Shown: piece after piece, positions 20,689 to 25,441 of the stretch
How the letters are laid out: each line of letters starts with the position of its first letter
Position numbering within the stretch: the first letter of the stretch is position 1
Virus record (IMG/VR): IMGVR_UViG_3300045988_143943
DNA from: a virus
Length of the DNA stretch: 40,879 nucleotides
Reading direction: 5' to 3' (one strand)
Made by a program: the position numbers and the translations under genes
The notes under the pieces: generated by a model
What the model saw: only the letters and a program-made list of their open reading frames with translations
Database searches by the model: none
What the model was told of the DNA's origin: nothing

Positions 20689-22197
20689 CTATATTTTAAA
20701 TTTGACCTCCAAAGTAAATTGTGCAAATCTCTTTTTTTCTTTGTTATATAAAATTTCCTTTATAATAGTTTTCAAAGCCTTATTTTTCAATTCTATATTA
20801 TCAGTGTTTTCATAACTTTCTATAGCACACTCTATATTTTCTGCTAACTCCTTATAATCAATGTCCTTGCTAACTTCTGCCTCTAATAACTTTTTAGTAC
20901 CTTTTATAGCTATTTCTATTTCTTCTTTCTTATTTGCCAAAGTCTGTTGTCTTTCTAAAAAAGTATCTACATCATATATACCTCTTTCTAGCAAGTCATG
21001 TAATTTATTTTTCTGCTTATCTAATTCTTTTTCTTCTTTTTCTAGAGTGGTTAGAGTATTTTGTAACATCTCTAGTTGCTTATTTTCTCTATCTTCTATT
21101 TCTGTATTATCTAACTCATCTTTAATCTCTTTTAATTTTATTTTCAAAACATTTATTATTTCTTCTTCTATTAGATCTAGCCTAGAAGAGCCAACCTCGT
21201 AGCATTGTTTGCAACGCAAATAAAGTACAGGGCCTTCTTTACCTGTATTGTAAGATGCTACCATTGTATGTTTACAATTAGAACATTTTACTATACCAGC
21301 TAATGGATTAATTAGTTTTCTACCACTTTTCTTAGCGGGTATTTGATTATTTATTCTTATTTCTTGTGCTTGATTCCAGTCATCTTCACTTATAATAGCC
21401 TGATGTTTTCCTTTACACGCTATCATATCACTTTCTCGATTTTTTCTTGTTTTTGTTCCTTTTCTCTTATATTCAAACCAAGTCACATAGCCACAATACG
21501 TTTTATTTCTTATAATCCTTCTGACTGCACATTCTGTAAAACATTTACCAGCAGTTGTTTTATAGCCTAGAGTGTTTAGATGATTCATTATCTTATATGC
21601 ACCTTCTCCTTTTAGATACATATCAAATACAAGTTTTATTGCTGGAGCAGTTTCTTCATCTATCATCATGTGCCTTTTCCCTAATTTATCATACTCGAAT
21701 TTGTATCCTAAAGGGGCTATTGAGCCTATGAAATTACCTTCTTCTATAGATTTAACTCTACCACGTTGCATACGTTTAGTTATTACTTTTAATTCTCTAC
21801 GTGCAAAGAAGGTTTTAAATTCCGTCATTTCTTCGTCTAGTTCGTTGTTTAGGTTGTAAGTCTTATCAGGTGTAACTATATAAGTATTACTTTGTTTGAA
21901 AGTATTTATAATTTTACCCTGGTCCTGCATATCTCCACGTCCTAGACGGTCTATATCCATACATAATACAGCATCATACAGATTATTTTCTACTTCTTCT
22001 AGAAGTTGTATCATTTTAGGTCTTTTTGCAATACTATCTCCACTAACTATTTCTTCTTTTATCTCAACTATATCAAGGTTTTGTTTTTTTGCAACTTCTA
22101 AAAGTGTACTCCTATGCCTACTGAGTGTATCGACCTTTTCTTTCTTTTCTAATTCTTCATCAGCCCTAGATTTTCTAAGGTATATACATGTTTTCAT
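20689..22197 (-). CDS. int: Large serine recombinase (integrase)
   Basis: 502 aa. N-terminal resolvase catalytic motif (IYLRKSR...), a recombinase domain, a Cys-rich zinc-ribbon (CSNCKH...CKQC) and a long coiled-coil C-terminus. Confidence 0.9.
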   Translation of the reverse strand: MKTCIYLRKSRADEELEKKEKVDTLSRHRSTLLEVAKKQNLDIVEIKEEIVSGDSIAKRPKMIQLLEEVENNLYDAVLCMDIDRLGRGDMQDQGKIINTFKQSNTYIVTPDKTYNLNNELDEEMTEFKTFFARRELKVITKRMQRGRVKSIEEGNFIGSIAPLGYKFEYDKLGKRHMMIDEETAPAIKLVFDMYLKGEGAYKIMNHLNTLGYKTTAGKCFTECAVRRIIRNKTYCGYVTWFEYKRKGTKTRKNRESDMIACKGKHQAIISEDDWNQAQEIRINNQIPAKKSGRKLINPLAGIVKCSNCKHTMVASYNTGKEGPVLYLRCKQCYEVGSSRLDLIEEEIINVLKIKLKEIKDELDNTEIEDRENKQLEMLQNTLTTLEKEEKELDKQKNKLHDLLERGIYDVDTFLERQQTLANKKEEIEIAIKGTKKLLEAEVSKDIDYKELAENIECAIESYENTDNIELKNKALKTIIKEILYNKEKKRFAQFTLEVKFKI

Positions 22198-22251
22198 TGG
22201 TAACCCTCCTTATAAAAAAAGAGCAGCTGGTAAAACTGCCCTGATGTTTGT

Positions 22252-22767
22252 CTATAATTTTAATATTTGTTCTTTTTTATTTTCATATTCTTCTTCAGTT
22301 ATAGCACCCATATCTAGAAGTTTTTTGAATTTCATTAATTCATCTGCATCACTTGATATATTTTGACTTCTATAGTTATTTTTATTTTCTATATAGTTCT
22401 CTATATATCCTTTAATTTCTAATATTTGTTCATTATCTTTTTTAGCGAAAGAAATAGTATTTTCATCTTGTACCGCATTAAAAACTCCGCCTTTAGCCTC
22501 TTGGCTACCCATTAATATTATTTGTAGATATCCAGTAGTTAAACCAGGTTTTTTATATTGTACTCCTGTTACATTATCTAAACAGATTTTCTTTGTACCT
22601 GTAAATCCTTTATTTATCGAATTCATAATTCCTTTAGCAGTAATAGAAATAAATTTCCCTTCTAAGACAATTTCATATTTACCGTTTGATTTTAAATTGT
22701 AAACTTTTTTAGAAGTTATAACTTGTCTTTCATTAGATTTATCTTTTTTAGATTTAAATAATCCCAT
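22252..22767 (-). CDS. PH-like (bacterial PH/DUF4429-like) domain protein with C-terminal SHOCT motif
   Basis: 171 aa. The C-terminus DELMKFKKLLDMGAITEEEYENKKEQIL matches the SHOCT pattern. The N-terminal beta-rich region includes GYLQI. Confidence 0.55.
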   Translation of the reverse strand: MGLFKSKKDKSNERQVITSKKVYNLKSNGKYEIVLEGKFISITAKGIMNSINKGFTGTKKICLDNVTGVQYKKPGLTTGYLQIILMGSQEAKGGVFNAVQDENTISFAKKDNEQILEIKGYIENYIENKNNYRSQNISSDADELMKFKKLLDMGAITEEEYENKKEQILKL

Positions 22768-22875
22768 AATTATCCCCCTCTTTAGTTTTCATTTTTTCTT
22801 AAATTGTAGCATATACCAAATTAATTTACACTATTTTCTAGTATAAAATAGATATTATGCTACAAAAATGATAGT

Positions 22876-23073
22876 ATGAAGATACTAATTTACCAACAAA
22901 GAATAAAAAAGAGATATTCATTAGAAAAATTAGCAAGAAAAACTAATATTAGTAAAGCTGCACTTAATAACTACGAAACTGAAAAAAGGAAGGTGAATAT
23001 ATTCCAGCTAGAAGATATAGCCAAGGCTTTAGATTGTAAAATAACAGATTTGTTTGATTCTTATTGGAAGTAA
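22876..23073 (+). CDS. Small XRE-family HTH protein (65 aa)
   Basis: HTH pattern YSLEKLARKTNISKAALNNYETEKR. No clear SD upstream. Confidence 0.55.
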   Translation: MKILIYQQRIKKRYSLEKLARKTNISKAALNNYETEKRKVNIFQLEDIAKALDCKITDLFDSYWK

Positions 23074-23223
23074 GCATAAATTTCCGTCTACATATGTGGA
23101 AATTTTACTAAAATATTCCAAAAAGGTCTTATTAGATAGTATAATAAGACTATACAAAATATTTTGTAATTTACATATACTATATATCTGAAAAATAGTA
23201 TATAATATATGTAAACGATTAAT

Positions 23224-23239
23224 TAGAACATATGTTCTA
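23224..23239. promoter_or_regulatory. LexA (DinR/Cheo) SOS box
   Basis: TAGAACATATGTTCTA is a perfect 16-bp palindrome. Its core GAAC-ATAT-GTTC (23226-23237) is identical to the core of the Gram-positive LexA consensus CGAACATATGTTCG. Confidence 0.7.
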
Positions 23240-23266
23240 TGATTTAAGGGGGGAATAATCTGGAAT

Positions 23267-23374
23267 ATGAAAGAAAAATTAATAAATGCAATAAAAAATC
23301 ATAAATTAGATCATAAACATTTAAATGAAGTTATAAAGCTAGCTAAAGAAGAATTGAATAAAACAAAAGACTAG
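23267..23374 (+). CDS. Small charged helical protein (35 aa) downstream of the LexA box; candidate SOS-induced antirepressor, or a non-coding transcript
   Basis: Encodes MKEKLINAIKNHKLDHKHLNEVIKLAKEELNKTKD. The G-rich SD (AAGGGGGG) is 13-14 nt upstream, which is long spacing. Ends in the bidirectional terminator. Confidence 0.35.
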   Translation: MKEKLINAIKNHKLDHKHLNEVIKLAKEELNKTKD

Positions 23375-23388
23375 GGATTACCTAGTCT
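23368..23388. terminator. Bidirectional terminator overlapping the CI-like gene stop codon
   Basis: AGACTAGG (23368-23375), loop GATTA, CCTAGTCT (23381-23388). A-run upstream and T-run downstream. Confidence 0.7.
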
Positions 23389-23720
23389 TTTTTTATTAGT
23401 CCAAATGCCATTTTAGTTATTAATTCAAGTTGTTCATCTGTTAATTGTTCTGCTAATTTAATAGCATCATGTTCTTTTCCTGACATATCTTCTAACGGTT
23501 TTTTATTATCTACACGCCCTAGCAGATAATCTGTGGTAACGTCAAATATATCTGCTAATTGTAAAAGCGTATGGGCATCTGGTACGCTTATGCCTCTTTC
23601 GTAGCAACCGTATGCTCCTTTTGTTAAACCTATTTTACTAGCGATTTCTTGTTGTGTATAATTATTTTCCTCTCTCAGTTCTCTTAATCTTCTTGCTAAC
23701 ATGTTTTTCCTATCCTCCAT
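23382..23720 (-). CDS. CI-like repressor (XRE HTH, no peptidase domain)
   Basis: 112 aa. HTH pattern YTQQEIASKIGLTKGAYGCYERG. Divergent from the Cro-like gene. Only a short helical C-terminus, with no S24 Ser/Lys motifs visible. Confidence 0.75.
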   Translation of the reverse strand: MEDRKNMLARRLRELREENNYTQQEIASKIGLTKGAYGCYERGISVPDAHTLLQLADIFDVTTDYLLGRVDNKKPLEDMSGKEHDAIKLAEQLTDEQLELITKMAFGLIKKD

Positions 23721-23756
23721 TAAAATGCACTTTATCTATAAATATGTTATAAGTTA

Positions 23757-23786
23757 ATTATACTTATATATTCTCTATTTATGCAA
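23757..23786 (-). promoter_or_regulatory. Candidate repressor-maintenance promoter
   Basis: On the minus strand: TTGCAT (23786-23781), 18-nt spacer, TATAAT (23762-23757). Confidence 0.45.
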
Positions 23787-23835
23787 ATTTTCCTCGCCTT
23801 TTTGAAATAAAATCGAAAAATTTTAGTCAAAACAC

Positions 23836-23863
23836 TTGACAGGCTAATTTAATTTGCTATAAT
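23836..23863 (+). promoter_or_regulatory. Early lytic promoter (extended -10)
   Basis: TTGACA (23836-23841), 16-nt spacer, TGCTATAAT with the -10 hexamer at 23858-23863. Related AT-rich motifs CTAATTTAATTTG (23843-23855) and CTAATTAAATTTG (23908-23920) may be operators. Confidence 0.65.
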
Positions 23864-23935
23864 GTAAGTATAACAAGTCAATAAGATTTGCTTAATAATT
23901 AAAAAAACTAATTAAATTTGATTGGAGGTGATTTG

Positions 23936-24160
23936 ATGAATAAGCTAAGAGAATACAGAACAGAGGGCAATTATAGACAAAGAGACTTAGCTGAAAAAAT
24001 AGGAGTAACAAGACAAGCATTTTCTTGTTATGAATTAGGAATAGCTAAACCTCCACTAGACAAAGCTAAGAAACTAGCTGATATATTTGGAGTAACAATA
24101 GAAGATATTTTTTTTAGTAAATCAGATGAATTAAATTCGACTAATAAAAACATTGACTAA
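23936..24160 (+). CDS. Cro-like XRE HTH regulator
   Basis: ATG 23936 with RBS GGAGGTG is preferred over the track TTG at 23918. HTH pattern YRQRDLAEKIGVTRQAFSCYELG. Confidence 0.75.
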   Translation: MNKLREYRTEGNYRQRDLAEKIGVTRQAFSCYELGIAKPPLDKAKKLADIFGVTIEDIFFSKSDELNSTNKNID

Positions 24161-24187
24161 TAATATTGATTGAAAGGAGATTGAAAT

Positions 24188-25015
24188 ATGGATTGTATAA
24201 ACGAAATGAACAACTTAGTACAAAGTATATCATCTAGAGAAGTAGCAGAAATGATGGAGACTAGACATGATAATTTAATGAACAAAATAGAAAAACACAC
24301 AACAATATTAGAAAAAGTTAGCGACCTAAAAATTAAGGTGGCTGATTTATGGATATTAAGTTCTTACTTAGATGCTCAAGGGAAAGAACGTAAAGAATAT
24401 CAAGTAACTAAAAAAGGCTGCGAATTTCTAGCACATAAAACAACTGGAGAAAAAGGGGACTTGTTTACCATAAGATATATGAATAAATTTGAGGAAATGG
24501 AACAGTACATAAAAGAACAACAAGTACCACAGTTAACAGAAAAACAAATGCTACAGTTGCAAATCCTAAATGGTGATGAAATGGAGAGAATAGGAGCTTT
24601 AAAACAATATGAGGGAGTTATAACTAAACCTCTAATAGACACAATAGAAAAACAATCAGATGCAATAAATGAATTAAAACCACATGCAGAATATGCAGAA
24701 AGAGTTTTAGAGGATAAAAAAACATTATTAACTCCAACTCAAATAGCTAAAGATTTTGGAATGGCTGGTAAAGCATTAAATGCATTACTCCATGAGTTAG
24801 GAGTTCAATATAAGCAAAACGGACAATGGCTTTTATATGCTAAGTATCAAGGTAAGGGATATACAGGACCATATCAACCAGATATACCGAATGCTAAACC
24901 TCAGACAAGATGGACTCAAGCTGGTAAAAAGTTTATCCATGACATTTTAAGAAAAAATGGCTATAAAACAATTTTAGAAAATCAACAAGAACAACAAAGA
25001 TTTGACTTTAACTAA
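24188..25015 (+). CDS. Antirepressor: Rha/ORF6N-type N-terminal domain plus KilAC/ANT C-terminal domain
   Basis: 275 aa. N-terminal ISSREVAEMMETRHDNLMNKIE and C-terminal LLTPTQIAKDFGMAGKALNALLHELGVQ... Confidence 0.7.
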   Translation: MDCINEMNNLVQSISSREVAEMMETRHDNLMNKIEKHTTILEKVSDLKIKVADLWILSSYLDAQGKERKEYQVTKKGCEFLAHKTTGEKGDLFTIRYMNKFEEMEQYIKEQQVPQLTEKQMLQLQILNGDEMERIGALKQYEGVITKPLIDTIEKQSDAINELKPHAEYAERVLEDKKTLLTPTQIAKDFGMAGKALNALLHELGVQYKQNGQWLLYAKYQGKGYTGPYQPDIPNAKPQTRWTQAGKKFIHDILRKNGYKTILENQQEQQRFDFN

Positions 25016-25027
25016 GGGGGCTTAAAT

Positions 25028-25441
25028 ATGGAAGATAATAAAAAACTAAGTTTCACATACTTTGGTGATATAAGAATAGAGAAAGCAAATGTTAGAGTGA
25101 TAGAAATAGGGGCTGGAAGTCTTAAATTCGCAATAGATGAAAGATATCCTCATTACATAAAGGTTTACATAGGAGATAACTCTGACGAAGGATTTGAATA
25201 CATTGACGATATATTAGGGATAGATCAAAAAATAAATGATGATGAATTTATGACAATAGTTCTTAATTATTGTGTGCAACATGTAGAGTTTATAACAAAT
25301 AAAGCAATGGAGGAAAGGGTTCAAAATTACTATAAAAAGTTAGAAAAAGAAAACCAAAAGGTAAAACAAATTTTATCTCAGTATACAGATGAACAGTTAT
25401 TAAACGAAGTTAACGAAAGAGGACTTTTAGGAGGTAATTAG
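25028..25441 (+). CDS. Hypothetical early protein (137 aa)
   Basis: ORF with RBS AAGGGGG. No family recognised. Confidence 0.6.
   Translation: MEDNKKLSFTYFGDIRIEKANVRVIEIGAGSLKFAIDERYPHYIKVYIGDNSDEGFEYIDDILGIDQKINDDEFMTIVLNYCVQHVEFITNKAMEERVQNYYKKLEKENQKVKQILSQYTDEQLLNEVNERGLLGGN

What the first reader, a model, noticed from the sequence alone, without database searches (positions are those of the whole stretch)
23224..23374. Perfect LexA (Cheo) box in front of a 35-codon ORF next to a CI-like repressor that lacks an autocleavage domain
TAGAACATATGTTCTA (23224-23239) is a perfect 16-bp palindrome. Its core GAACATATGTTC equals the core of the Gram-positive LexA/DinR consensus CGAACATATGTTCG. 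In such an AT-rich genome a G/C-anchored 12-mer like this is unlikely by chance. I noticed no second GAAC-N4-GTTC while reading, although I did not scan exhaustively. It lies 27 nt upstream of a small ORF (23267-23374, highly charged and helical). That ORF runs convergently toward the CI-like gene and ends in a bidirectional terminator overlapping the CI stop. The 112-aa CI-like protein shows only an HTH and a short helical tail, with no S24 peptidase part, so RecA-stimulated self-cleavage is unlikely. Host LexA de-repressing a small antirepressor is the logic known from coliphage 186 Tum, the Gifsy phages and N15. It would supply the missing SOS input here.
Basis: partly seen in the sequence, partly recalled or inferred. 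Interest (0 to 1): 0.65.

Follow-up and report, generated by a model that had tools for sequence, protein, structure and literature searches.

The report
SOS-controlled mini antirepressor of a phage
A temperate phage of a low-GC gut Firmicute appears to sense host DNA damage through a host LexA site that controls a 35-amino-acid protein, which most likely disables the phage's uncleavable repressor; the logic is already known, and a Bacillus phage relative has recently been solved structurally.

Summary
TAGAACATATGTTCTA lies at 23224-23239 and is the only GAAC-N4-GTTC in the window. It sits 27 nt before a 35-codon ORF with a strong ribosome-binding site. The ORF ends in a bidirectional terminator shared with a convergent repressor that has only an HTH domain. 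That repressor is probably 106 aa, not 112.

On its own the box is only mildly improbable: 11-12 of 100 shuffles contain one. Comparison with relatives makes it convincing. In nine diverged sub-lineages the arms TAGAAC/GTTCT never change, while the central four bases vary. The ribosome-binding site, start codon, open frame and terminator hairpin are also kept.

The repressor is a full-length homologue of AimC (PDB 9IAQ). In Bacillus phi106-family phages, a LexA site precedes a 29-aa antirepressor, AimX, convergent on aimC. Natural chimeras show the small ORF varies with the repressor's C-terminal two-helix domain, not with its HTH domain.

The window has no S24 domain, no ImmA-type protease motif and no AimR/AimP.

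It is a new member of a known kind: an AimX/AimC-like module without arbitrium signalling, outside Bacillus. The same 16-mer precedes small ORFs next to short repressors in about a third of 112 viral contigs. The peptide families involved are unrelated.

The parts
23192..23206 (+). Conserved promoter block AAAATAGTATATAAT, with the -10 TATAAT at 23201-23206. It probably drives the small ORF. No convincing -35 was found.
   Evidence: The block is invariant in all aligned lineages while the flanks diverge. The scan tool also reports TTTACA-18-AATAGT at 23170-23199. The transcription start was not determined.
23224..23239 (.). Predicted host LexA operator (Cheo/DinR-type box) TAGAACATATGTTCTA. 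It lies 17 nt downstream of the -10 and overlaps a second -10-like TATGAT (23238-23243).
   Evidence: It is the only GAAC-N4-GTTC in the window. The arms are invariant and N4 varies in nine sub-lineages. It matches the clostridial and Bacillus LexA operator form. The identical 16-mer occurs in 112 IMG/VR contigs of 26-63% GC, which fits a host factor rather than a phage-specific operator.
23246..23253 (+). Shine-Dalgarno sequence AAGGGGGG of the small ORF.
   Evidence: The GGGGG run is invariant in the relatives.
23267..23374 (+). 35-codon ORF, the predicted SOS-induced micro-antirepressor (AimX-like in role).
   Evidence: ORF. It is kept as a 33-39 aa ORF in all relatives. There are 3 synonymous and 0 non-synonymous changes against L020/L056/L109. 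The AF2 single-sequence model has two helices, 2-11 and 16-34, with pLDDT 79.5. There are no Pfam or PHROG families. Only one true relative appears among 1.84 billion representatives.
23365..23391 (.). Bidirectional intrinsic terminator shared by the small ORF and CI. Its two arms encode the K-D-stop ends of both proteins.
   Evidence: Found on both strands by the scan. A hairpin of -12 to -17.5 kcal/mol is present at the same place in seven lineages with different stem sequences.
23382..23702 (-). CI-like master repressor of 106 aa from M7 (the ORF extends to 23720). It has an XRE-type HTH (about residues 2-60), a linker, and a C-terminal two-helix hairpin (75-85, 89-105). It is an AimC-family homologue without an autocleavage domain.
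   Evidence: Pfam shows HTH only. The AF2 model has pLDDT 88.5. The top Foldseek hits are 9IAQ (AimC, 32% identity over 107 columns), 1B0N_A (SinR in complex with SinI) and 9SF2_A (phi106 repressor with AimX). The family profile hits 9iaq_A at E=1.9e-13 over profile positions 4-104.
23836..23863 (+). Early lytic promoter: TTGACA, 16-nt spacer, TATAAT, with TG. It is the presumed target of CI repression.
   Evidence: 12 of 12 consensus matches in the scan. An operator-like repeat lies in its spacer.
23844..23856 (.). Putative CI/Cro operator CTAATTTAATTTG.
   Evidence: There are two exact copies of CTAATTWAATTTG, 64 bp apart, in the CI-cro intergenic region. The sequence is unrelated to the GAAC box. 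Binding was not tested.
23908..23920 (.). Second putative CI/Cro operator CTAATTAAATTTG.
23936..24160 (+). Cro-like (AimL-like) HTH protein of 74 aa, divergent from CI.
   Evidence: Pfam HTH_3, E=1.4e-13. The position is conserved in the relatives.
24188..25015 (+). Rha/KilAC (Ant-type) protein in the CI-repressed early operon. It cannot start induction but may reinforce it or act on other prophages.
   Evidence: Pfam ANT E=6e-24 and Phage_pRha E=1.6e-23. PHROG 63, anti-repressor Ant.

Best explanation
This is an SOS-gated repressor/micro-antirepressor switch.

In the lysogen, host LexA binds TAGAAC-N4-GTTCTA just downstream of a conserved -10 element. This keeps the 35-codon ORF silent. Meanwhile the 106-aa HTH repressor, dimerised through its C-terminal two-helix hairpin, shuts off the early promoter at 23836-23863.

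DNA damage activates RecA and LexA cleaves itself. The small ORF is then transcribed and translated. Its two-helix product binds the C-terminal oligomerisation hairpin of the repressor and forms a heterodimer. That heterodimer can no longer oligomerise on the operators. Cro, Ant and the replication genes are then expressed. The bidirectional terminator keeps the two convergent transcripts apart.

Shown by sequence and comparison: the anatomy; conservation of box arms, ribosome-binding site, ORF and terminator; homology of the repressor to AimC; and absence of S24, ImmA and AimR/AimP. Inferred: LexA binding, DNA-damage inducibility, the peptide-repressor contact and its effect.
For: The box is unique in the window. 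Its arms are invariant and N4 is variable in nine sub-lineages. Its form equals the clostridial and Bacillus LexA operator.

The same 16-mer lies in front of 33-48 aa ORFs next to HTH-only repressors in about 37 of 112 IMG/VR contigs. A small ORF plus a convergent ORF is found at 39% of boxes, against 8% of random positions.

The small ORF shows signs of coding constraint: invariant ribosome-binding site and ATG, an open frame in all lineages, and 3 synonymous against 0 non-synonymous changes among close relatives.

The repressor has only an HTH domain, and no window ORF of 80 aa or more contains HExxH. Its model has a C-terminal helical hairpin. The best structural and sequence matches are AimC 9IAQ, SinR/SinI 1B0N and the phi106 repressor-AimX complex 9SF2.

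Experiments on AimX/AimC cover several steps. They show a LexA site just upstream of a 29-aa ORF convergent on aimC. [quoted passage not shown] They also exclude an antisense role.

Natural chimeras point the same way. L207 has an HTH domain 100% identical to the window, but a 47%-identical C-terminal domain and a 31%-identical small ORF. L210 has a 76% HTH domain, an 89% C-terminal domain and a 100%-identical small ORF. Over 28 pairs, small-ORF identity tracks the C-terminal domain (Spearman 0.81) and not the HTH domain (0.27).

As a negative control, 0 of 79 XRE loci from reference genomes have a box plus small ORF downstream.
Against: Nothing here is experimental. The box alone is only weakly improbable: 11-12 of 100 shuffles contain one. 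No clear -35 was found, and the transcription start is unknown.

The peptide has no detectable homology to AimX, SinI, Tum or any known family. Its similarity to its own repressor's C-terminus is not significant (z=0.01).

L116 and L117 have identical CI proteins, yet their small ORFs differ by 5 non-synonymous and 1 synonymous change. So constraint on the peptide is loose, or the peptide is diversifying.

The co-variation with the CI C-terminal domain could come from physical linkage alone, because the small ORF abuts the 3' end of the CI gene. The host is not identified. No close relative was found in the reference genomes, so the cognate LexA is unknown.
Confidence: 0.7

Rival explanations
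1. The LexA-controlled unit acts as RNA. Convergent transcription or an antisense transcript reading into the CI gene lowers CI expression after DNA damage, and the 35-codon ORF is incidental.
For: The promoter points at the 3' end of CI, and the two units are only 7 nt apart. This idea was originally proposed for aimX.
Against: A strong bidirectional terminator separates the two genes and is kept in all lineages, although the stem sequences differ. The ribosome-binding site, ATG and open frame are conserved, and the changes among close relatives are synonymous only. In phi106 and phiW23, changing the aimX start codon to a stop abolished function, and recoding the overlap did not. No Rfam family reaches threshold.
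Confidence: 0.08
2. The peptide is SOS-induced but targets something other than the phage repressor. Examples would be host LexA or RecA (as with GIL01 gp7 or DinI), cell division, or a competing prophage. Induction of this phage would then run through another route.
For: Small LexA-linked phage proteins with host targets exist, such as GIL01 gp7 (PMC4551915, listed). The peptide shows no sequence tie to any antirepressor. L116 and L117 have identical CI but peptides that differ at 5 residues.
Against: The peptide gene always abuts the repressor gene, and it varies with the repressor's C-terminal domain rather than with the HTH domain. The repressor belongs to the AimC family, whose partner peptides sit in the same place. 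No other SOS input is encoded: there is no S24 domain and no HExxH protease motif.
Confidence: 0.12
3. The palindrome is not a LexA site. It is a chance AT-rich palindrome or the operator of a phage regulator, such as the 65-aa HTH protein encoded just upstream or CI itself.
For: 11-12 of 100 shuffles of the window contain such a motif. An HTH gene lies 150 nt upstream.
Against: The arms are invariant across lineages, including those that lack the 65-aa HTH gene (L113, L122). The central four bases drift, as expected for LexA half-site recognition. The candidate CI/Cro operators, CTAATTWAATTTG, are unrelated to the box. The identical 16-mer recurs in 112 unrelated viral contigs of widely differing GC content.
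Confidence: 0.05

Closest known systems
AimX-AimC-AimL module of phi106-family arbitrium phages of Bacillus (bioRxiv 10.1101/2025.11.23.689978; PDB 9IAQ, 9SF2)
   Same: Both have a short XRE repressor with a C-terminal helical oligomerisation domain and no autocleavage domain, and a divergent cro-like gene. Both have a very small ORF (29-80 aa there, 35 aa here) convergent on the 3' end of the repressor gene, with a LexA site immediately upstream of that ORF. The window's repressor is a full-length homologue of AimC (E=1.9e-13, 32% identity).
   Different: There is no AimR receptor or AimP peptide, so SOS would be the only input. The host is a roughly 30% GC Clostridia-like bacterium, not Bacillus. 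The peptide shows no detectable sequence similarity to AimX. The two genes are separated by a terminator rather than overlapping.
SinR-SinI of Bacillus subtilis (PDB 1B0N)
   Same: Both pair an HTH repressor with a C-terminal helical hook and a small helical antagonist that forms a heterodimer through that hook. SinR is the fourth-ranked structural hit, after three chains of 9IAQ, and a sequence-profile hit at E=9.4e-9.
   Different: SinI is demonstrably homologous to the SinR C-terminus, but here that similarity is not significant. SinI is under developmental control, not LexA control. It is a chromosomal biofilm switch, not a phage switch.
LexA-controlled antirepressors of Gram-negative phages: 186 Tum, Gifsy GfoA/GftA, N15 AntC (PMC3121763)
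   Same: The logic is the same: a non-cleavable repressor, a LexA-repressed antirepressor gene, and induction that is in principle reversible.
   Different: These proteins are unrelated and larger (Tum is 146 aa). Their LexA box is the CTGT-N8-ACAG type. In the Gifsy phages the antirepressor gene is far from the immunity region.
Sar-SroF of SPbeta/phi3T (bioRxiv 10.1101/2025.11.27.690993)
   Same: A small antirepressor whose promoter carries a Bacillus-type SOS box. A Gram-positive host.
   Different: The repressor SroF has an integrase-like fold and binds DNA as a monomer. Sar acts by DNA mimicry rather than by blocking dimerisation.
ImmR-ImmA (ICEBs1 and many Firmicute phages)
   Same: The HTH domain is the best sequence match in the PDB (7T8I, E=1.9e-20). 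The repressor is likewise short and not self-cleaving.
   Different: ImmR is inactivated by the adjacent ImmA (M78) metalloprotease. The window has no such gene and no HExxH motif in any ORF of 80 aa or more. A 39%-identical relative elsewhere does have one (L127).

Membership tests
LexA operator of Firmicutes (Cheo/DinR box) | Inverted repeat GAAC-N4-GTT(C/T) | tested here: met
   GAACATATGTTC at 23226-23237, unique in the window. The operator form is taken from PMC4234289.
LexA operator of Firmicutes (Cheo/DinR box) | Constraint falls on the half-sites, not on the spacer | tested here: met
   The TAGAAC and GTTCT arms are invariant, and N4 takes seven different values in nine sub-lineages.
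LexA operator of Firmicutes (Cheo/DinR box) | Overlaps or abuts a promoter so that binding blocks transcription | tested here: inconclusive
   The box lies 12-17 nt downstream of a conserved TATAAT and overlaps a second -10-like hexamer. The transcription start is unknown and the -35 is weak.
LexA operator of Firmicutes (Cheo/DinR box) | Bound by host LexA and derepressed by DNA damage | not testable with these tools
   This needs EMSA or SPR and transcript measurement after mitomycin C.
AimC-AimX repressor/antirepressor module | Short XRE repressor (80-140 aa) with a C-terminal helical oligomerisation domain and no autocleavage domain, homologous to AimC | tested here: met
   Pfam shows HTH only. 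The AF2 model has a helical hairpin at 75-105. Matches to 9IAQ: Foldseek E=3.6e-5, and profile E=1.9e-13 over positions 4-104.
AimC-AimX repressor/antirepressor module | Very small ORF convergent on the 3' end of the repressor gene, and a divergent cro-like gene on the other side | tested here: met
   The relevant ORFs are 23267-23374 (+), 23382-23702 (-) and 23936-24160 (+). The layout is conserved in the relatives.
AimC-AimX repressor/antirepressor module | AimR receptor and AimP peptide genes immediately upstream of aimX | tested here: not met
   Upstream lie a 65-aa HTH ORF, a DUF4429/SHOCT gene and a serine integrase. There is no TPR receptor. So this is not an arbitrium system.
AimC-AimX repressor/antirepressor module | Sequence relationship of the peptide to a known AimX | tested here: not met
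   phmmer of the peptide against PDB chains found no AimX chain (9SF2 holds the phi106 AimX complex). Foldseek gave no hit. AimX proteins are reported to be highly divergent, so this test is weak.
AimC-AimX repressor/antirepressor module | Peptide binds the repressor's C-terminal domain and blocks oligomerisation and DNA binding | not testable with these tools
   Only indirect support: the small ORF varies with the C-terminal domain, not with the HTH domain.
SinR-SinI | Antagonist is homologous to the repressor's own C-terminal multimerisation domain | tested here: not met
   The Smith-Waterman score of the peptide against its own CI C-terminus equals the shuffled mean (z=0.01). It is significant only in the unrelated L026/L053 family (z=3.2-5.7).
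Lambda-type self-cleaving repressor (peptidase S24) | C-terminal S24 domain with a Ser/Lys dyad and an Ala-Gly cleavage site | tested here: not met
   There is no S24 hit even at E up to 1. The protein ends 40 residues after the HTH domain.
ImmR-ImmA | Adjacent COG2856/M78 metalloprotease gene | tested here: not met
   No neighbouring protease. No HExxH motif in any window ORF of 80 aa or more.
186 Tum / Gifsy GfoA / N15 AntC antirepressors | Sequence membership in those protein families | tested here: not met
   The peptide has no Pfam or PHROG family. Only the regulatory logic is shared.

The most novel reading that the evidence does not exclude
'LexA box, then an ORF of 45 codons or fewer, convergent on a short HTH-only repressor' may be a general, uncatalogued SOS-induction cassette of Firmicute phages, especially gut Clostridia. 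It would be independent of arbitrium signalling and built from at least two unrelated peptide families. The peptide and the repressor's C-terminal domain would be exchanged together as one module. Induction specificity could then be reassorted separately from operator specificity, as the chimeras L207 and L210 suggest.
Probability: 0.45. Interest if true: 0.6.

Novelty: new member of a known kind. Interest (0 to 1): 0.45.

Why it matters
Small antirepressors are hard to find by sequence, and most gut Clostridia phages have no known induction mechanism. This locus gives a concrete, testable case. It suggests the AimX/AimC type of switch also works without arbitrium signalling and outside Bacillus, with LexA as the only input. 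It also offers a simple genomic signature: a Cheo box, a tiny ORF, a terminator, and a convergent short XRE repressor. That signature picks out candidate SOS-inducible prophages in metagenomes. The natural chimeras suggest which repressor domain the peptide recognises. It does not overturn any concept, because LexA-gated antirepression has been known since phage 186.

Tried and rejected
- **Close phage relatives:** Megablast of 22200-25100 against GenBank phages found no match.
- **Sequence mimicry:** I tested whether the peptide is a sequence copy of its repressor's C-terminal hairpin, as SinI is of SinR. For the window pair the score equals the shuffled mean, so I dropped this as a claim. 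It holds only for the L026/L053 family.
- **Shared peptide superfamily:** An HMM built from the large superfamily of small ORFs found behind the same 16-mer does not hit the window-lineage peptides. The best non-member ORF scores only E=0.062, and no window-lineage peptide appears in the list down to E about 9. The two are analogues, not shown homologues.
- **Host identification:** Scanning one genome per species with the CI profile gave only distant XRE relatives, the best being 60% identity over the HTH domain in C. difficile. The endolysin (64% to a Terrisporobacter phage) and the terminase (65% to C. perfringens phage phiCp-D) only narrow the host to low-GC Clostridia.
- **Known RNA families:** The Rfam scan of 22700-24300 found nothing above threshold.
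- **Peptide structure and family:** Foldseek of the peptide model gave no hits. phmmer against 1.84 billion representatives found one true relative.
- **The 65-aa HTH gene as part of the module:** Rejected, because it is absent from L113 and L122, which keep the box and the ORF.

Full report
**Context.** The window looks like a complete, circularly permuted genome of a temperate siphovirus-like phage of about 30% GC. Structural genes come first. A serine integrase lies at 20689-22197(-). A lysogeny switch and replication genes follow, with terminase and portal at the far end. No close relative exists among deposited phages. The endolysin is 64% identical to that of a Terrisporobacter phage. 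The large terminase is 65% identical to that of C. perfringens phage phiCp-D. The host is therefore a low-GC member of the Clostridia, possibly Peptostreptococcaceae, but it is not identified.

**The observation.**
- TAGAACATATGTTCTA is at 23224-23239.
- It is the only GAAC-N4-GTTC in 40,879 bases.
- On chance grounds this is only weakly notable. The expectation is 0.13 per window, and 11-12 of 100 dinucleotide-preserving shuffles contain one.
- Twenty-seven bases downstream, after AAGGGGGG, an ATG opens a 35-codon frame at 23267-23374.
- The frame's stop codon lies in the left arm of an 11-bp hairpin (23365-23391, -15.1 kcal/mol). That hairpin scores as an intrinsic terminator on both strands.
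- The right arm holds the stop codon of the convergent CI-like gene.
- That gene matches only XRE-type HTH families in Pfam and has no S24 peptidase.
- Its likely start is the second ATG (23702), which has a GGAGGA in front and gives 106 aa. Database relatives are 105-109 aa.

**Comparative evidence for the box.** An exact scan of IMG/VR for the 16-mer returned 112 contigs. Five of them are near-identical relatives of the window. I also recovered more distant relatives of the CI protein (57-92% identity) from metagenome assemblies, together with their flanks.

In every sub-lineage that keeps this region, the same order is found:
1. an invariant block AAAATAGTATATAAT;
2. 12-17 bases of spacer;
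3. TAGAAC-N4-GTTCT(A/G);
4. a GGGGG ribosome-binding site;
5. an ATG;
6. a 33-39 codon frame;
7. a hairpin terminator;
8. the 3' end of CI.

The half-sites never change, but N4 takes the values ATAT, ATAC, GTAC, GTGT, GTAT, GTTT and AAAA. This pattern is expected for a LexA dimer reading GAAC/GTTC half-sites. It matches the operator form used for clostridial and Bacillus LexA (PMC4234289).

The candidate operators of the phage's own repressor are two exact copies of CTAATTWAATTTG. One lies in the spacer of the perfect early promoter at 23836-23863. They are unrelated to the box. The 65-aa HTH gene upstream (22876-23073) is missing from lineages that keep the box, so it is not the box's regulator.

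**Is the small ORF a gene?**
- Its ribosome-binding site and start codon are invariant, and the frame stays open in all lineages despite the AT-rich composition.
- The window differs from L020, L056 and L109 by three synonymous and no non-synonymous changes. There are 17 synonymous sites against 88 non-synonymous sites.
- Against this, L116 and L117 have identical CI proteins, but their peptides differ at five residues with one synonymous change. The peptide therefore evolves fast. The same is reported for AimX.
- The single-sequence AF2 model is a helix-turn-helix hairpin, with helices at 2-11 and 16-34 and pLDDT 79.5.
- The peptide belongs to no Pfam or PHROG family.
- It has one true relative among 1.84 billion representative proteins.

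**What the repressor is.** The AF2 model (pLDDT 88.5) has a five-helix HTH domain, a linker, and a two-helix hairpin at 75-85 and 89-105.
- The best Foldseek matches in the PDB are the chains of 9IAQ, the AimC repressor of phage BMBtp14 (32% identity over 107 columns).
- Next come SinR in its complex with SinI (1B0N), and further down 9SF2, the phi106 repressor in complex with AimX.
- A sequence profile of the CI family hits 9iaq_A at E=1.9e-13 over nearly its whole length, including the C-terminal QLTD region.

The preprint describing these structures reports several relevant results:
- AimC proteins are 80-140 aa HTH repressors without an autocleavage domain.
- In phi106, a LexA site lies just upstream of a 29-aa ORF, AimX, convergent on aimC.
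- AimX, not its RNA, is needed for induction.
- AimX binds the AimC C-terminal domain, forms a heterodimer, and prevents oligomerisation and operator binding.
- The authors themselves compare this to SinI/SinR.

The window has the same core, but no AimR/AimP genes. The genes upstream of the small ORF are the 65-aa HTH ORF, a DUF4429/SHOCT gene and the integrase.

**A natural experiment.** L207 encodes a CI whose HTH domain is 100% identical to the window's. Its C-terminal domain is only 47% identical, and its small ORF is 31% identical. That small ORF instead resembles the one in L122, whose CI C-terminal domain is the closest to L207's. L210 shows the converse: HTH domain 76%, C-terminal domain 89%, small ORF 100%. 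Over 28 lineage pairs, small-ORF identity correlates with C-terminal-domain identity (Spearman 0.81) and not with HTH-domain identity (0.27). This is what a peptide that docks on the C-terminal hairpin would give. However, the small ORF lies next to the part of the CI gene that encodes this domain. Co-inheritance by linkage is therefore an alternative explanation, and I count this evidence as supportive only.

**No other SOS input.** There is no S24 domain. No ORF of 80 aa or more contains an HExxH motif, so there is no ImmA-type protease. The Rha/KilAC Ant protein lies downstream of cro, in the operon that CI represses, so it cannot start induction.

**Generality.**
- Among the 112 contigs with the identical 16-mer, 32 carry, directly downstream, a 33-48 aa ORF of a different and internally coherent superfamily (pattern EEYK..LI..I....L..IY.FIK). 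The separation from 8,524 other small ORFs is clean: members score E of 1.5e-8 or better, and the next best scores 0.062. This separation is partly circular, because members were used to build the model.
- These ORFs are convergent on 119-125 aa, or in one case 239 aa, proteins. The partners tested in Pfam hit only HTH families.
- In the L026 type, the box exactly fills the 17-nt spacer between TTGACA and TATAAT.
- A small ORF plus a convergent ORF is found at 39% of boxes, against 8% of random positions in the same contigs.
- The window's peptide is not detectably related to this superfamily.
- Conversely, 0 of 79 XRE-repressor loci taken from reference genomes have a box plus small ORF behind the repressor gene, so the arrangement is not generic to XRE loci.

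**What did not hold.** The attractive idea that the peptide is a sequence copy of the repressor's own dimerisation hairpin, as SinI is of SinR, is not supported for this pair (z=0.01). It is supported only for the L026/L053 family. The two ORFs share a K-D-stop ending simply because the two arms of the terminator palindrome encode it.

**Verdict.** The closest known system is AimX/AimC rather than Tum, Gifsy or N15. Because AimR/AimP are absent, this is not an arbitrium system. It is best described as a new member of the class of LexA-gated small antirepressors, in a Clostridia-type phage.

| Claim | My estimate |
|---|---|
| The full mechanism as described | 0.7 |
| The LexA site is real | about 0.85 |
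| The peptide targets the CI C-terminal domain | about 0.6 |

Interest is moderate.

Noticed in passing
window 23362-23394: Both convergent ORFs end in K-D-stop because the two arms of the terminator palindrome (AAAAGACTAG / CTAGTCTTTT) encode their last codons. The shared ending is a by-product of the hairpin, not a sign of homology.
   Followed up: yes
window 22876-23073: A 65-aa XRE HTH ORF lies co-oriented upstream of the box and has no Shine-Dalgarno sequence. It is intact in L116, though the collection's gene caller did not call it there. It is absent from L113 and L122. It is an accessory gene of unknown role, possibly leaderless.
   Followed up: partly
window 23170-23186 / 23199-23215: A 17-nt inverted repeat, 94% complementary (TTTACATATACTATATA / TATATAATATATGTAAA), brackets the conserved -10 of the small-ORF promoter. 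Its right arm is not conserved in L116, so it may not be functional.
   Followed up: partly
window 23844-23856, 23908-23920, weaker 22817-22829: Candidate CI/Cro operators CTAATTWAATTTG. One lies in the spacer of the early promoter. A weaker, inverted copy lies in the promoter region between the DUF4429/SHOCT gene and the 65-aa HTH ORF.
   Followed up: partly
L001, L003, L004, L026, L030, L031, L045, L049, L051, L067, L102 and others (32 of the 112 IMG/VR loci): A second, unrelated superfamily of 33-48 aa ORFs lies directly behind the identical 16-mer, convergent on HTH-only repressors. The L026 and L003 types share a 5'-UTR motif, ATCGCTACC...AGTGCG. It has no Pfam or PHROG family.
   Followed up: partly
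L001 8343-9194, L003 6261-7193, L031 12646-13497: These loci carry an extra 283-aa HTH protein, divergent from the box promoter. Its C-terminal half looks like a degenerate S24 fold by eye, but it has no Pfam S24 hit.
   Followed up: no
L036 (IMGVR_UViG_3300018465_000007) 114-1162: At least six copies of TAGAACATATGTTCTA lie within about 1.1 kb of a 57% GC contig. This is an array of LexA-box-like palindromes of unknown meaning.
   Followed up: no
L124 2501-3059 (protein P0016): This CI variant of 123 aa runs straight into the DUF4429/SHOCT gene. The terminator, small ORF and box are missing, and the CI C-terminus is altered. It looks like a deletion derivative that would have lost SOS inducibility.
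   Followed up: partly
L127 2501-3736: A 39%-identical CI homologue is followed by a Peptidase_M78 (ImmA-type) gene. It sits next to ThiF, Multi_ubiq and BubE genes, a different way of controlling the same kind of repressor.
   Followed up: no
window 22252-22767: A DUF4429 + SHOCT protein of 171 aa lies between the integrase and the switch. It is conserved in some relatives (L207) and replaced by other genes in others. It is a variable moron slot.
   Followed up: no
window 24188-25015: A Rha/KilAC Ant-type protein lies directly after cro. Relatives carry one to three different Ant, Bro or ORF6N genes at this position, a variable set of candidate trans-acting antirepressors.
   Followed up: no
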